Made by a program: the position numbers and the translations under genes. The notes under the pieces were generated by a model, which ran no database searches, was not told the DNA's origin, and saw only the letters and a program-made list of their open reading frames with translations. Positions 41,412 through 46,913 of a stretch of 64,000 nt of DNA are shown in pieces (the stretch's first letter is position 1; every line of letters starts with the position of its first letter). The DNA comes from a virus. The stretch lies in the IMG/VR virus record IMGVR_UViG_3300011445_000018, positions 1-64,000 of that record. One strand, written 5' to 3'.

Positions 41412-42047
41412 CAACCTGATCAATTATAGTACAGCACTTAAATCTATACGCTGTAACATGTTACATCGACTATGAAACCAAAGCGATCAAGGTGGTCAAA
41501 TGTAGTACAAGGGGTATTTATACCCCCTAAACCCACTATATGTGACGTAAACCAAAACGGACTCAGTGTTTGCGACAGGGGTAAAAATAAAATCGCAAAC
41601 GGCATGCCTCTTGCTACTACTACCATTTCGGCTGACTGACCCGACCTTGACTCAGTCGCGTGACGCCCATAGCGTGCACGCGGGGACCGAAAACATTTTG
41701 TTTTTGGTCGTCAGGATTCACGGGTCGGCGGTCAATAAGACATAGAAAGGGACAAACGAACATGCGGGGCTGAGCCAGCCTTAGGCCGATGACAAAGTGA
41801 ATCACTAATAACGACCCATGGTAACATGGGGCGGGCGGTTTCAATCCGCAAACTTTCAATCGCTATACGGCTATGCATCATGCGATGCTAAGTGGAATCG
41901 TAAGATAGTCAATCGATTCGTTAGCGGGCGAATTATAGAAACGTTGGGAACACGGTTTGCCACAAGCAATTGTCGTGAAGTGCAAACTATCTATCAACGT
42001 CTGAACGATAGGTTAGTGTGGACCTAGTTGCCCCATAAGGGGACACT

Positions 42048-42365
42048 ATGAACACACAGACCATTATCCAACTTAACAAACTACCTTCGTTGCAATCTCT
42101 TGACAAGCCAGCACTGGCCATGACAGGGGAGCAAACACGGCAACGGAGTTACCTGGAATCAGTCGCGGATTTGGATGCTACAATTAACAGCATCGAACGT
42201 CGCGTCAAAAGCGAAAAGGTAGCATACGAAAAGGCTACCAATCAACCTTGGAAAACGAGCGATGGCAAATCGCATTTCACGTGCGAACAAGCCATCGACC
42301 ATGCTTACGCGAACAAGTGCAAGTGGGTAAAGTGCACCGGAATCGGTATGATTTGGCACAGTTAA
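42048..42365 (+). CDS. Hypothetical early protein enclosed by a 28-bp stem
   Basis: AAGGGG RBS; flanking IR 42007-42034/42374-42401. Confidence 0.7.
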   Translation: MNTQTIIQLNKLPSLQSLDKPALAMTGEQTRQRSYLESVADLDATINSIERRVKSEKVAYEKATNQPWKTSDGKSHFTCEQAIDHAYANKCKWVKCTGIGMIWHS

Positions 42366-42475
42366 CACTTTTCGGGGCAACTAGGCCCATACTAACCTAT
42401 CAGGGGATGGTTGCTTTGGCTGTTTTAGCCTGTTAAAATGTCCAAGGGAGCCATCCCCACAAACAAGGAAACCAC

Positions 42476-42682
42476 ATGAACGGTAAATGGTATAAAGGTA
42501 ACAATGCATACTACTTTGTGGACAATGAAAATTATGCCTATCGTGTTTGGGAAAATGGTAACGTTATGGGAATGTCCGAATACGACGCCACTAATCTAAT
42601 ACGCGGATTGTGCACTGAGATACCTTGTCCGGCATTCGGTGCAAGTGCTTTGAAAGATTTACAACGTCTATTGGAGCAATGA
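42476..42682 (+). CDS. Hypothetical early protein
   Basis: AAGGA RBS after a motif copy. Confidence 0.7.
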   Translation: MNGKWYKGNNAYYFVDNENYAYRVWENGNVMGMSEYDATNLIRGLCTEIPCPAFGASALKDLQRLLEQ

Positions 42683-42732
42683 TGACAATCGCAATCCTCC
42701 TCGTGCTTCTAGTCTTGTTACTTCTAGTCTGA
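42679..42732 (+). CDS. 17-aa hydrophobic peptide MMTIAILLVLLVLLLLV
   Basis: ATGA overlap with the upstream stop; GGAG just upstream. Confidence 0.45.
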   Translation: MMTIAILLVLLVLLLLV

Positions 42733-42769
42733 TTTTCGGGGCTTTTGATAAAGCCCCATAGCAACCATC

Positions 42770-42981
42770 CCTAATACACGAGTATTGGCTTTGAGTAACA
42801 ATCGGGGCTTGCCACGATTTGTTAACTCTAGCTGATTCAAAGCACACGAACTAATCCAATTAGGTCAATTGATATTGTTAACAACCCTTGCGGCTTAAAG
42901 TGCTATTGAATGGTACGGAAGGACGCAACGTTGCCAACGCGATATGGCTTAGCGTAACGAAGCCAATACTCGTTTGTTAGG
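42770..42981 (+). ncRNA. Putative multi-helix structured RNA between two motif copies
   Basis: 24-bp closing stem (42770-42793/42958-42981) with G-U pairs. Internal helices GAGTAACAATCG/CGATTTGTTAACTC and ATTCAA-AGCAC/GTGCT-A-TTGAAT. No ORF in the track. Confidence 0.6.
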
Positions 42982-43013
42982 ATCAACCATCCCCAATTAC
43001 AGGAGCTATTACA

Positions 43014-43313
43014 ATGCTCAAGTTTGTTGACATCGGTCGCAAAGGCTATTTGGTAATTGCCGAAATTAGCCCAGATGACAAGTTATGTCGATCCATTGGC
43101 TTTCTGGACTTAACATCGCCGATCAGACCAATGGCGACCGTTGCCGCCGACTATGTCATGGACACAGTCAATTTGTTAAATGAACGAATTGCCAGATTGC
43201 CGCCGTTCATACAACAAGCCATTGTGCCAATCGTTCGCCCGATCACCGATCCACAATTCGTGCAAGAATGGCACTACATCGAAACCAGCGAGCCATTGTC
43301 CTTGTTAAATTGA
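43014..43313 (+). CDS. Hypothetical early protein
   Basis: AGGAG RBS after a motif copy. Confidence 0.7.
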   Translation: MLKFVDIGRKGYLVIAEISPDDKLCRSIGFLDLTSPIRPMATVAADYVMDTVNLLNERIARLPPFIQQAIVPIVRPITDPQFVQEWHYIETSEPLSLLN

Positions 43314-43380
43314 ACAAATGCCCGGTCAGCCAGGGGCAATACTGGTTGAAAGCAACCATCCCTAACAGAAAGGACAAATA

Positions 43381-43638
43381 ATGAAAGAGTACGTTGTGCG
43401 TGTTGTTATTCCCGATATTGACAATGACATATTGGGATTGGCAAAACCAATCGATGGAGCATTTCTTGAATGTCTACGCTATGCTGGTATTGTTAAAATT
43501 CACACTTCTGATACTGGCCAAGTATTTGATATTCGTTGCCCAGACGTTGTTAAAATGTCCAAAAATTGGGCAAATGCCAATGCCGACCGCATGAAAAGCT
43601 TTGGCTACAATGCCGTCGCCGCACCAGCCTATGAATGA
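43381..43638 (+). CDS. Hypothetical early protein
   Basis: Motif followed by AGAAAGGA RBS. Confidence 0.7.
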   Translation: MKEYVVRVVIPDIDNDILGLAKPIDGAFLECLRYAGIVKIHTSDTGQVFDIRCPDVVKMSKNWANANADRMKSFGYNAVAAPAYE

Positions 43639-43705
43639 TTCCCTCCCCGGTATTGTGGGAATTAACAATGCCGGAAGCAACCATCCCTAACAGAAAGGAC
43701 GAACA

Positions 43706-45711: not shown

Positions 45712-45800
45712 CATTCGGCATTGTGTCGGGTGTTTGTTTAACAAACGTCTTTCGCAAGGGGGCGTTACAATGGGCTTGCTAACTCTAACAAGGAAAACGT

Positions 45801-46016
45801 ATGTCACCACGTTACTATCGTTTATGTGTCAAACGAAATGGCTACTGGCATGAAGTGGCACGAATCGGTAAATCATTAGCCGTTTCAAGAGACAATGCCA
45901 TATTGTTACTTGGCAGTTGGAACGAATTAGACGCAATTTTCGGCATGGGGAATTGGTCTGTTACTACTGACCTTTCCCTCGACTTTGTTACTTGTGTAAC
46001 ATCTGACATCAATTAA
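45801..46016 (+). CDS. Hypothetical early protein
   Basis: AAGGA RBS. Confidence 0.65.
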   Translation: MSPRYYRLCVKRNGYWHEVARIGKSLAVSRDNAILLLGSWNELDAIFGMGNWSVTTDLSLDFVTCVTSDIN

Positions 46017-46035
46017 CAAAAAGCAACCATCCACT

Positions 46036-46130
46036 AAACATTATAGAGTTGAGTTGCCAGTGCTTATATATAAAATGCGATTCGCGTTTATCGCATATTA
46101 AGTTACTGGCAACTCTACTGTGTGATGTTT
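46036..46130 (+). ncRNA. Putative long hairpin RNA between motif copies
   Basis: AAACATTATA/TGTGATGTTT (2 G-U), GAGTTGCCAGT/ACTGGCAACTC, ATGCGAT/ATCGCAT. Confidence 0.55.
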
Positions 46131-46145
46131 GAAAGCAACCATCCT

Positions 46146-46300
46146 AAATGTCACAAAGCTGGGCTGTCAGCTAATGCTGGCCGCACTGCATGATAATGTG
46201 TAGCAAGGCATTCTGATGCCATTCAGATTGCTATGTGGTTTCGACAGCCATAACAGTGTCGCATGTCTAAAGGCCCTGACAGCCTAGCTTTGTTACATTT
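46146..46300 (+). ncRNA. Putative structured RNA between motif copies
   Basis: 25-bp closing stem 46146-46170/46276-46300 (1 G-U, 1 mismatch), with internal GCACTG/CAGTGT and TAGCAA/TTGCTA helices. Confidence 0.55.
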
Positions 46301-46328
46301 AACCATCCCCAAAAACAAGGAAACAGTC

Positions 46329-46508
46329 ATGCAAGTCGAAGGCACAATTCGATACAAAGACACGTATCGAGATCTTATCAAAGCCTTAATGGGACATGAA
46401 GATGTTCTGGATAGGCCCATCATCGTGCAAATTGAATTGCCAGGAGGCATAAATTTCATTCTAGATGATGAAGATAACAAAGAGCGTAGAATATTAACGT
46501 TTGAATAA
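46329..46508 (+). CDS. Hypothetical early protein
   Basis: AAGGA RBS before ATG 46329, downstream of the track start. Confidence 0.6.
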   Translation: MQVEGTIRYKDTYRDLIKALMGHEDVLDRPIIVQIELPGGINFILDDEDNKERRILTFE

Positions 46509-46587
46509 TTTCGCTGGACCTTTGTTAAAAGGTCCAGAAGCAACCATCCCTAAATATGTGGTACTGGGCCATTAGAAAGAATTAACA

Positions 46588-46839
46588 ATGTTTCACTTCG
46601 ACATTACATGTGAAGATGTTCGCCTAATCGCGAACGAAGTAAGCCCAACAAGTGTAAGAGTGACGTTGTACGACAATCTCAGTGGCAAAAGTCACTTGCT
46701 ACAGTCTGTTAGTTTCTGTGATTTTGAAAAAATGGTCAGTGGTATGATTTGTTGCCACGGTGACGTACCAGCGGAAAGTTACCCAGCTTTAGAAGAAATT
46801 CTGAAAGGTTGCCCGAACGAGTGTCGGCCCATTCCTTAG
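46588..46839 (+). CDS. Hypothetical early protein enclosed by a 25-bp stem
   Basis: IR 46549-46573/46865-46889. Confidence 0.65.
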   Translation: MFHFDITCEDVRLIANEVSPTSVRVTLYDNLSGKSHLLQSVSFCDFEKMVSGMICCHGDVPAESYPALEEILKGCPNECRPIP

Positions 46840-46913
46840 CGTCTAGCGTTCGCTGGTCCAAAACAATGGCCCAGTACCGTGTATTTAGGTGCAATCATCC
46901 CAGGAGACAAATT

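What the first reader, a model, noticed from the sequence alone, without database searches (positions are those of the whole stretch)
42007..46889. Three whole genes are each clamped inside a 25-28 bp long-range RNA duplex
Seen: 42007-42034/42374-42401 (26 WC, 1 G-U, 1 mismatch) encloses the 105-aa gene. 44251-44276/45755-45780 (23 WC, 2 G-U, 1 mismatch) encloses the 1.4-kb ParB-like gene. 46549-46573/46865-46889 (22 WC, 3 G-U) encloses the 83-aa gene. The three duplexes are unrelated in sequence, so they are not ends of one mobile element. Established: pre-rRNA processing stems have this geometry and are cut by RNase III. Inference: individual mRNAs are excised with paired ends (stabilised, possibly circularised), or looped out to bring motif copies together.
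Basis: partly seen in the sequence, partly recalled or inferred. Interest (0 to 1): 0.8.

Follow-up and report, generated by a model that had tools for sequence, protein, structure and literature searches.

The report
Gene-enclosing RNA stems in phage early operon
In the early operon of an uncultured freshwater phage, and of three related phages, single genes or short non-coding stretches are each enclosed by a 22-32 bp long-range helix that looks selected at the RNA level, most likely to let host RNase III cut the long early transcript into end-paired pieces.

Summary
All three duplexes exist exactly as described and are far above chance: 16 long-range helices in the 72.9-kb phage genome against 0-4 in shuffles. 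The same 6.8-kb + strand early operon holds three more stems of the same kind, around non-coding inserts of 43, 105 and 168 nt. Most follow a grammar of stem, motif AGCAACCATCCC, Shine-Dalgarno, gene.

Three related phages (large terminase 46-50% identical) carry unrelated-sequence stems in the same divergent block upstream of the terminase. G007 has six, G005 one (around a distant homolog of the ParB-like gene) and G008 one. Non-Watson-Crick transitions inside 13 stems are G.U 23 times and A.C 6 times in the mRNA sense (p=0.0012), which argues for selection on RNA rather than DNA.

No recombinase, transposase, phage RNase III or RNA data were found. No orthologous arm pair could be aligned, so classical covariation is untested. 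My best reading is domain-closing mRNA stems that host RNase III cuts. Cleavage, stabilisation and circularisation remain inference. An anti-RBS switch appears in only 3 of 8 gene-adjacent stems. I rate it a new variant of a known kind, interest about 0.66.

The parts
42007..42034 (+). 5' arm of stem 1; ends 13 nt before the ATG of the 105-aa gene
   Evidence: (I5)
42048..42365 (+). 105-aa ORFan enclosed by stem 1
   Evidence: no Pfam/PHROG family
42374..42401 (+). 3' arm of stem 1; starts 8 nt after the stop codon
   Evidence: 27 of 28 pairs in MFE
42403..42417 (+). single inverted copy of the operon motif (anti-motif), directly after stem 1; a perfect 15-nt complement of four motif copies
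42770..42791 (+). 5' arm of non-coding stem nc1, preceded by a motif copy at 42760-42771
   Evidence: (I23)
42960..42981 (+). 3' arm of nc1 (168-nt insert), followed at once by a motif copy at 42982-42993
44251..44276 (+). 5' arm of stem 2; 3 nt after the motif copy at 44236-44247 and 19 nt before the ATG
   Evidence: (I6)
44296..45711 (+). 471-aa gene with a ParB/Noc/KorB-like predicted fold, enclosed by stem 2
45755..45780 (+). 3' arm of stem 2; 43 nt after the stop codon, with no motif copy after it
   Evidence: 25 of 26 pairs in MFE
46036..46061 (+). 5' arm of non-coding stem nc2; motif copy at 46022-46033 before it
   Evidence: (I13)
46105..46130 (+). 3' arm of nc2 (43-nt insert); motif copy at 46134-46145 after it
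46145..46170 (+). 5' arm of non-coding stem nc3
   Evidence: (I10)
46276..46301 (+). 3' arm of nc3 (105-nt insert); overlaps the motif copy at 46301-46309
46549..46573 (+). 5' arm of stem 3; overlaps the end of the motif copy at 46539-46550 and ends 14 nt before the ATG
   Evidence: (I14)
46588..46839 (+). 83-aa ORFan enclosed by stem 3
   Evidence: no family
46865..46889 (+). 3' arm of stem 3; a degenerate motif copy at 46890-46901 follows at once, then the SD and the next gene
   Evidence: 25 of 25 pairs in MFE
40764..40790 (+). promoter-like repeat (TTGTCA..TGTGCTAAAAT, extended -10 by my reading) at the head of the + strand block; inverted copies at 40635-40685 and 48067-48561
   Evidence: (I3, I1, I12, I17); function inferred
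47525..47564 (+). strong intrinsic-terminator-like hairpin (18 pairs plus a T run) that closes the + strand block

Best explanation
The duplexes are RNA structures selected in the sense strand of one long early transcript. The window is a tailed dsDNA phage. The block at about 40.8-47.56 kb is a run of small ORFan genes on the + strand, read divergently from the terminase and structural module.

In this block at least six segments are closed by a 22-28 bp helix formed by their own flanks. Three segments are genes and three are non-coding inserts of 43-168 nt. The transcript is thereby divided into closed domains.

By recall, helices of two turns or more are the substrate of the host's RNase III. 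The most likely working is therefore that RNase III cuts both arms, as it does in the processing stems around 16S and 23S rRNA. Each enclosed cistron or small RNA would be released with its remaining 5' and 3' ends still paired. The downstream gene would be left with a short leader that starts at the repeated motif.

Shown: the complementarity and its excess over chance; the clustering in the early operon in four related phages; the position of the arms (5' arm ending 12-21 nt before the start codon in 8 of 8 gene-adjacent stems); the G.U bias in the mRNA sense; and the predicted thermodynamic dominance of the helices.

Inferred: co-transcription of both arms, RNase III cleavage, and its effect on stability or expression.
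For: (1) Excess over chance.

(2) Clustering: 6 of the 16 hits in G000 lie in 42.0-46.9 kb. The remaining ten are 2 in the head region of the same block (a promoter-repeat palindrome at 40654-40788 and a hairpin at 41249-41325), 3 in the 48.07-48.56 kb promoter-like repeats, 1 hairpin upstream of the primase, and 4 at the weakest score of 20 WC + 3.

(3) Relatives. G007 has 8 hits in 101.5 kb, 7 of them in 18.4-24.3 kb. Six of these are clamps around a 39-aa ORF, a 146-aa gene, a 496-aa gene, a 28-32-aa ORF, a 175-nt non-coding insert, and one superstem around three of these units. G005 has one clamp around the 373-aa protein P0026. G008 has a helix with 25 of 25 WC in the best window around a 68-76-aa ORF. 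In all four genomes the clamps lie 2-10 kb upstream of the large terminase gene, on the opposite strand.

(4) G.U:A.C is 23:6 in the sense of the genes across 13 stems (308 WC, 11 other), one-sided binomial p=0.0012. G007 alone gives 13:4 and G000 alone 10:2. Detection was strand-symmetric for both.

(5) MFE and pair probabilities.

(6) There is no strong + strand terminator between 40.8 kb and 47525.

(7) P0026 of G005 aligns to the family of the 471-aa protein (hhalign prob 73%, E 3e-5, 90 columns including the GHRR block). A distantly homologous gene is thus clamped in two phages by arms with no sequence in common.
Against: There are no RNA data of any kind. The 24 runs that hold the stretch are all DNA, so co-transcription, folding in vivo and cleavage are unproven.

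No orthologous pair of arms could be aligned, so there is no classical covariation. Laid contigs of 4 runs were identical to the window.

The G.U excess could be inflated by strand-biased C-to-T mutation of the non-template strand.

Translating ribosomes would unwind a helix whose loop is a translated gene, so its occupancy in vivo is uncertain.

No RNase III or dsRBD gene is present in G000, G005 or G007. A host enzyme must be assumed, and the host is unknown.

In 4 of 6 G000 stems, direct copies of the 12-nt motif lie outside the inverted arms. That arrangement also resembles a target duplication around an inserted DNA element.
Confidence: 0.55

Rival explanations
1. The stems act without cleavage, as translational switches or closed loops. 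The 5' arm is an anti-RBS that pairs locally with the gene's own Shine-Dalgarno and start region while the mRNA is nascent. It is captured by the RBS-like 3' arm once the whole cistron is made, which licenses translation. The closure also puts the stop codon next to the start for ribosome re-use. The logic is related to the tac/fbi 5'-3' closure of hok mRNA and to the icaR 5'-3' UTR pairing.
For: The 5' arm ends 12-21 nt before the AUG in 8 of 8 gene-adjacent stems.

The 5' arm pairs with its own initiation region far better than shuffled arms do in 3 of 8: G000 stem 1 z -4.7, G007 B z -5.8, G005 z -2.4. Cognate pairs beat non-cognate pairs by permutation, p=0.014.

When only the 5' part is folded, the MFE puts the SD in a hairpin with the inner end of the arm in 5 of 6 cases shown.

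For precedents I read the abstract of PMC3868564 and two passages of PMC9841398.
Against: 5 of 8 arms pair with their initiation region no better than shuffled arms do.

The predicted SD accessibility changes little and in both directions: 0.45 to 0.27, 0.37 to 0.48, 0.73 to 0.79 and 0.41 to 0.62. Two further cases were computed with a wrong AUG offset and are not counted.

Four stems enclose no gene (nc1-nc3 in G000, F in G007), and two G007 stems (C, D) are not adjacent to an RBS. Translation control therefore cannot be the common function.
Confidence: 0.2
2. The inverted repeats are DNA-level features. They would be the ends of inserted gene cassettes or MITE/IS-like elements, with the flanking motif copies as target duplications, or sites for inversion of the enclosed segment. 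Any RNA pairing would then be a by-product.
For: In 4 of 6 G000 stems (nc1, nc2, nc3, stem 3) a direct copy of the 8-12-nt motif lies just outside each arm, while 'empty' sites carry a single copy.

The early block looks hyperplastic. All four contigs of the closest relatives (G001-G004) stop at its edge, and gene content differs completely between G000, G005 and G007.
Against: The arms of the 14 stems are unrelated in sequence, so no single transposase or invertase could recognise them.

No enclosed protein hits any Pfam family at E<=0.01. No resolvase or tyrosine recombinase is found in G000, G005, G007 or G008.

Stems 1 and 2 and the G005 stem have no flanking duplication.

Neutral DNA repeats should show G.U-type and A.C-type transitions equally, but 23:6 is seen.

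No joint or inversion appears in the contigs of 4 runs, although coverage was partial.
Confidence: 0.08
3. The stems are binding or assembly platforms for a phage or host double-strand-RNA-binding factor other than RNase III, or decoys that titrate such a factor early in infection.
For: Only the general facts support this: several helices of 22 bp or more, concentrated in the first transcript made.
Against: No dsRBD protein is detectable in the three phages. The precise placement of the arms around cistrons is not explained.
Confidence: 0.05

Closest known systems
Processing stems of bacterial rRNA operons (helices formed by the flanks of 16S and 23S rRNA, cut by RNase III); from recall, no paper read
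   Same: A helix of about two turns or more is made by sequences that flank a 0.1-1.7 kb functional RNA in a long primary transcript. Neighbouring stems abut each other, as the D 3' arm abuts the C 5' arm in G007.
   Different: Here the loops are protein-coding cistrons or unknown short RNAs in a phage early operon. Cleavage is not shown. The arms are not conserved in sequence between relatives.
RNase III sites of the phage T7 early region (R0.3 to R1.3); from recall
   Same: A phage early polycistronic transcript is divided between genes by host RNase III, and the cut leaves structured ends that stabilise the products.
   Different: T7 sites are local hairpins between genes. None encloses a gene.
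icaR mRNA of Staphylococcus aureus, 5'-3' UTR pairing (PMC3868564; abstract read)
   Same: [quoted passage not shown]
   Different: In icaR the pairing covers the SD and represses translation. Here the SD lies just outside the helix. The helices are much longer (22-32 bp) and occur serially along one operon.
hok mRNA tac/fbi fold-back closure (PMC9841398; two passages read)
   Same: A long-distance 5'-3' interaction closes a whole small mRNA, and alternative partners decide whether the SD is free. A comparable alternative pairing is seen in 3 of 8 stems here.
   Different: hok is a single toxin gene with an antisense partner and 3' trimming. There is no evidence here of toxins, antisense RNA or trimming.
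PeSL promoter/stem-loop cassettes of T4-type phages (PMC2839356 and PMC4122927; search listing only)
   Same: A repeated composite intergenic unit (stem-loop plus conserved motif) flanks small ORFan genes in a hyperplastic early region. This is comparable to the stem, AGCAACCATCCC, SD unit here.
   Different: By recall, PeSLs carry a sigma-70 early promoter and are direct repeats acting in DNA recombination. The motif here is not promoter-like, and PeSLs have no unique gene-enclosing inverted arms.

Membership tests
RNase III processing stem (rRNA-operon type) | Two complementary flanks form about 20 bp or more of nearly continuous duplex around the released RNA | tested here: met
   22-28 bp in six G000 stems, and 24-34 bp in G005, G007 and G008. 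MFE and pair probability support it.
RNase III processing stem (rRNA-operon type) | Both arms lie on one primary transcript | tested here: inconclusive
   All genes are on one strand. The only strong + strand terminator-like site in 40.5-48.7 kb is at 47525-47564. No RNA run is available.
RNase III processing stem (rRNA-operon type) | Staggered double-strand cleavage by RNase III within the helix | not testable with these tools
   Needs in vitro cleavage or end-mapping. The host is unknown, and no phage RNase III is present.
RNase III processing stem (rRNA-operon type) | Pairing is kept in evolution while the sequence changes | tested here: inconclusive
   Stems with unrelated sequences occupy the same operon in 4 genomes, and G.U:A.C is 23:6. 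No orthologous arms could be aligned.
5'-3' UTR closure with SD switch (hok tac/fbi, icaR) | The 5' and 3' untranslated flanks of one cistron pair with each other | tested here: met
   Arms lie 12-21 nt before the AUG and 0-51 nt after the stop in the 8 gene-adjacent stems.
5'-3' UTR closure with SD switch (hok tac/fbi, icaR) | The closure, or an alternative partner of one arm, sequesters the SD or start codon | tested here: inconclusive
   The alternative 5'-arm:RBS pairing is significant in 3 of 8 stems and not in the other 5. The SD accessibility predictions are mixed.
IS or MITE-type transposable element | Terminal inverted repeats shared by copies of the element | tested here: not met
   Every stem has its own arm sequence.
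IS or MITE-type transposable element | Transposase encoded inside, or elsewhere in the genome | tested here: not met
   The enclosed proteins have no Pfam family. The 471-aa protein folds like ParB/Noc/KorB. No PF00239 or PF00589 match in the 4 genomes. DDE families were not searched genome-wide.
IS or MITE-type transposable element | Target-site duplication outside the inverted repeats | tested here: inconclusive
   Motif copies flank 4 of 6 G000 stems. Stems 1 and 2 and the G005 stem have none.
Invertible DNA segment (Hin/Gin/Cin type, invertons) | A site-specific recombinase, and inverted repeats that share its recognition sequence | tested here: not met
   No recombinase was found, and the arms are unrelated. 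No inversion joints appear in the laid contigs, at partial coverage.
ParB/Srx superfamily (for the 471-aa gene only) | ParB N-terminal fold with an arginine-rich GxRR block | tested here: inconclusive
   Foldseek top hits are ParB/Noc/KorB, E 1.7e-4 and prob 1.0, but TM is only 0.17-0.48. H109 and R111 are invariant and R110 nearly so in the family alignment. There are no Pfam or PDB sequence hits.

The most novel reading that the evidence does not exclude
The early genes of this phage clade are plug-and-play RNA modules. Each freely exchanged cistron or small RNA carries its own closing helix of 22 bp or more. The helix insulates the module's folding from whatever neighbours it lands beside. 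Host RNase III then excises it to give an end-paired, pseudo-circular mRNA. In some modules an anti-RBS/RBS-mimic pair licenses translation only after the 3' end exists. The direct copies of the motif at the feet of the helices are the recombination joints by which modules are gained and lost. This would be a natural counterpart of the synthetic RNA-processing insulators used in operon design.
Probability: 0.22. Interest if true: 0.85.

Novelty: new variant of a known kind. Interest (0 to 1): 0.66.

Why it matters
Long-range helices that enclose whole functional RNAs are textbook for rRNA, but for bacterial or phage mRNAs only isolated single-gene cases are known (icaR, hok).

Here there is a serial, gene-by-gene version. 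It is present in four related but sequence-divergent phages and carries a strand-specific signature of selection on RNA. That would make mRNA domain architecture a designed feature of phage early operons.

If the stems are RNase III sites, they offer three things:
- a compact natural system for studying how processing sets the stability and stoichiometry of host-takeover genes;
- a source of orthogonal cistron insulators;
- a purely sequence-based marker (clusters of unique long-range inverted repeats) for finding early operons and new small RNAs in uncultured phages.

My full-text searches listed no paper that describes gene-enclosing stems in a phage operon. This is not proof of absence, and subscription journals are not covered.

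Tried and rejected
Relatives of the clamped genes:
- The 471-aa protein found no relative in viral contigs or metagenome contigs.
- Its 40%-identical homolog P0002 found none in viral contigs, and P0014 found none in metagenome contigs.
- P0026 and P0027 found only their own records.
- The alignment A1 was too divergent for the search for related loci.
- The 311-aa nuclease gene beside the block gave no pattern match.
- The 15-nt motif pattern gave 47 single, apparently chance, matches in viral contigs and no multi-copy locus.
- blastn against phage GenBank records found no match.

RNA evidence: no RNA holder was listed among the 24 runs. The four laid DNA runs were contigs identical to the window, with partial cover, so they offered no variants to test covariation.

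Rfam: only two sub-threshold chance-level hits in 40.5-48.8 kb, so the non-coding inserts match no known family. No tRNA or tmRNA was found.

A shorter-stem search (14 nt, all paired, at least 12 WC) found no further gene-flanking stems around the other genes of the operon.

P0027, the 496-aa clamped gene of G007, is not related to the ParB-like family. The stems are therefore not tied to one gene family.

I considered and rejected archaeal bulge-helix-bulge excision and circularisation. The SD sequences and the sigma-70-like and intrinsic-terminator-like signals point to a bacterial host.

I also rejected integron attC sites, which are local hairpins, and retron a1/a2 repeats, since no reverse transcriptase was seen.

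
Full report
WHAT THE WINDOW IS. The window is bases 1-64000 of a 72,895-bp IMG/VR virus record. It is a tailed dsDNA phage. It has a large terminase at 36700-38340 (-), a portal at 35045-36700 (-), a primase at 1165-3852 (+), a tape-measure-like protein, family A DNA polymerase, an SNF2 helicase, a ligase and ThyX. Runs that hold the stretch come from freshwater sediment and groundwater metagenomes, and all are DNA.

Nearly all genes lie on the - strand. The exception is a block of small + strand ORFs between about 40.8 and 47.56 kb. 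This block starts after a divergent pair of promoter-like repeats (TTGTCA..TGTGCTAAAAT at 40635-40685 on - and 40764-40790 on +). It ends at the strongest terminator-like hairpin of the region, 47525-47564. None of its ten small proteins matches Pfam or PHROGs at a meaningful level. By position and content I read it as the early, host-takeover operon. That reading is inference.

THE OBSERVATION. All three duplexes are present at the stated coordinates with the stated pair counts, and they enclose the stated ORFs.

They are not chance. With 25-nt windows, at least 23 WC+G.U pairs and a span up to 3 kb, the genome has 16 helices against a mean of 2.1 (0-4) in 12 dinucleotide shuffles. At 24 or more pairs it has 6 against 0.17, and one window is fully paired against none. 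A criterion that treats both strands alike (WC at least 20, WC plus any transition pair at least 23) gives 16 against 0, 0, 2, 1, 1. In 398 kb of unrelated viral loci the same criterion gives 14 hits in 9 loci, mostly at the weakest score.

Folding each unit alone puts 25-27 of the 25-28 pairs in the MFE, with mean pair probability 0.94-0.97.

IT IS BIGGER THAN REPORTED. The same operon holds three more stems of the same size around non-coding inserts:
- 42770-42791/42960-42981, with 168 nt between the arms;
- 46036-46061/46105-46130, with 43 nt;
- 46145-46170/46276-46301, with 105 nt.

So 6 of the 16 genome-wide hits fall in 4.9 kb. The other ten are:
- 2 in the head region of the same block, a promoter-repeat palindrome at 40654-40788 and a hairpin at 41249-41325;
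- 3 in the promoter-like repeats at 48.07-48.56 kb;
- 1 hairpin upstream of the primase;
- 4 weak hits of 20 WC + 3.

The inserts match no Rfam family and no tRNA.

GRAMMAR. A 12-nt motif, AGCAACCATCCC, occurs 10 times forward and once inverted at up to 1 mismatch. All copies but one lie in 42.4-46.9 kb, and looser copies bring the operon total to 12.

Read, 10 of these 12 copies have the 3' end of a stem 0-5 nt upstream. That stem is either a short local hairpin (for example 43943-43966, 44210-44233, 46515-46537) or the 3' arm of a long-range stem (nc1, nc2, nc3, stem 3). The motif is followed about 7 nt later by an SD and a start codon.

The long-range stems therefore sit where an ordinary intergenic hairpin otherwise sits. 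In four of them a second motif copy precedes the 5' arm. Stem 1 is followed by the only inverted motif copy (42403-42417), which is a perfect 15-nt complement of four forward copies. Stem 2 has a motif only on its 5' side.

RELATIVES. The clamped proteins have no close relatives in the searchable DNA collections. The 471-aa protein has only 22 other clusters among 1.8 billion representatives, the best at 40% identity.

A search with the large terminase gave 12 loci. The four closest contigs (G001-G004, 64-69% identity) are syntenic over the rest of the genome. All four end at the edge of the early block, so they say nothing about it.

Three more distant genomes do contain the block, and all have clamps there:
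- G007 (101.5 kb, terminase 50% identical) has 8 hits, 7 of them within 18.4-24.3 kb on the strand opposite to the terminase. One of these is iteron-related and I dropped it. The other six enclose a 39-aa ORF, a 146-aa gene, a 496-aa gene with a 220-nt leader, a 28-32-aa ORF and a 175-nt non-coding insert. The sixth is a superstem around three of these units, whose 3' arm abuts the next 5' arm.
- G005 (68 kb, 50%) has one clamp, 26 bp with a 2x2 internal loop, around a 373-aa protein. That protein aligns to the family of the 471-aa protein across the GHRR block (hhalign 73%, E 3e-5).
- G008 (64 kb, 46%) has a helix with 25 of 25 WC in the best window around a 68-76-aa ORF.

G006 gave only hits built from a repeated palindromic motif, and I did not count it. 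No arm sequence is shared between any two stems. The 496-aa protein of G007 is unrelated to the ParB-like family, so the feature belongs to the operon rather than to one gene.

RNA OR DNA. Inside the 13 stems of G000, G005 and G007 there are 308 WC pairs, 23 G.U, 6 A.C and 11 other mismatches when read in the sense of the genes. One-sided binomial p for G.U over A.C is 0.0012. Detection in G000 and G007 was strand-symmetric.

A neutral DNA repeat should drift equally into both kinds of transition pair, so the excess points to selection for pairing in the sense-strand RNA. One caveat is that strand-biased deamination could contribute.

Against DNA-level mechanisms:
- the arms are all different;
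- the enclosed proteins have no transposase or recombinase family;
- no resolvase or tyrosine recombinase is found in the four genomes;
- no joints are seen in the laid contigs, at partial coverage.

For a DNA-level history, motif copies flank 4 of 6 stems like a target duplication, and the block is clearly hyperplastic. I think this speaks to how modules are exchanged, by recombination at the motif, rather than to what the inverted arms are for.

MECHANISM. All stems are 22 bp or longer. By recall, that is the length at which bacterial RNase III cuts both strands, and an exposed helix of this size would hardly escape it. The geometry is that of the rRNA processing stems, down to abutting neighbours. 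My best reading (0.55) is that host RNase III dissects the early transcript at these stems. That would release each enclosed cistron or small RNA with paired ends and leave the next gene with a short motif-led leader. No phage RNase III or dsRBD protein is present.

A second layer may exist in some stems. In 3 of 8 gene-adjacent stems the 5' arm can pair about as well with the gene's own SD and start region, so the 3' arm looks like an RBS mimic (z -4.7, -5.8 and -2.4 against shuffled arms; cognate versus non-cognate permutation p=0.014). In 5 of 8 it cannot, and the predicted SD accessibility is equivocal. Because four stems enclose no gene, translation control cannot be the common function. 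Circularisation has no support.

COMPARISON AND NOVELTY. The nearest known things are:
- rRNA processing stems and the T7 early RNase III sites (both from recall);
- the icaR 5'-3' UTR duplex (abstract read);
- the hok tac/fbi closure (two passages read);
- for the motif unit, the PeSL cassettes of T4-type phages (search listing only).

None of these is a serial, gene-by-gene set of unique long-range helices in a phage operon. Three full-text searches listed no such description. I rate it a new variant of a known kind.

LIMITS. Everything rests on sequence. No paper supplements were needed.

Noticed in passing
window 42404-46901 (12 copies; also 55714-55725): The motif AGCAACCATCCC is repeated in one orientation in the intergenic spaces of the early operon. 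It is usually 0-5 nt after a stem and about 19 nt before a start codon. One inverted copy at 42403-42417 is a perfect 15-nt complement of four forward copies (43349, 43674, 43967, 44234). The motif could be a processing site, a protein-binding site like a stoperator, or the target of a cis or trans antisense segment.
   Followed up: partly
window 40900-41450: A dense non-coding region at the head of the operon. It holds repeated palindromes around CCTAGTAACTAGGCA, two hairpins of about 60 nt each followed by GGTCACGCTAG, and the heptamer GAACGAT repeated about 10 times in tandem at 41348-41412. It is a candidate origin or centromere-like site for the ParB-like protein. Analogous iteron arrays occur at the head of the block in G005 (L083 1040-1180), G007 (23960-24250) and G008 (61950-62240).
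   Followed up: no
window 40635-40807 and 48067-48561: Inverted copies of a promoter-like repeat (TTGTCA/TTGACA .. TGTGCTAAAAT) bracket the whole 40.8-48.5 kb region. A GC-rich non-coding stretch of about 300 nt lies at 48140-48440 between copies.
   Followed up: no
G001-G004 (L057-L059, L067 and the stretches): All four contigs of the closest relatives end within a few hundred bases of the divergent promoter region, at the edge of the early block. This suggests the block is hypervariable in populations, or that it breaks assemblies.
   Followed up: partly
window 954-997/1071-1114; G001 19946-19983/20062-20099: A hairpin with a 44-nt stem (91% paired, 73-nt loop) lies 51 nt upstream of the primase gene. 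The relative G001 has a 36-38-nt stem at the same place with a different sequence. This may be a second conserved structure.
   Followed up: partly
window 43943-43966 and 44210-44233: Two identical palindromic hairpins flank the 67-aa gene 43999-44202. Because each is self-complementary, the two copies could also pair with each other and clamp that gene. G005 shows the same possibility with its own palindromic motif (L083 4510-4530/4826-4846).
   Followed up: no
window 44296-45711: The 471-aa protein belongs to a rare family, with 23 clusters in 1.8 billion representatives and no Pfam model. A confident AF2 model finds ParB, Noc and KorB as its best structural matches. H109 and R111 are invariant and R110 nearly so, within the GHRR block.
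   Followed up: yes
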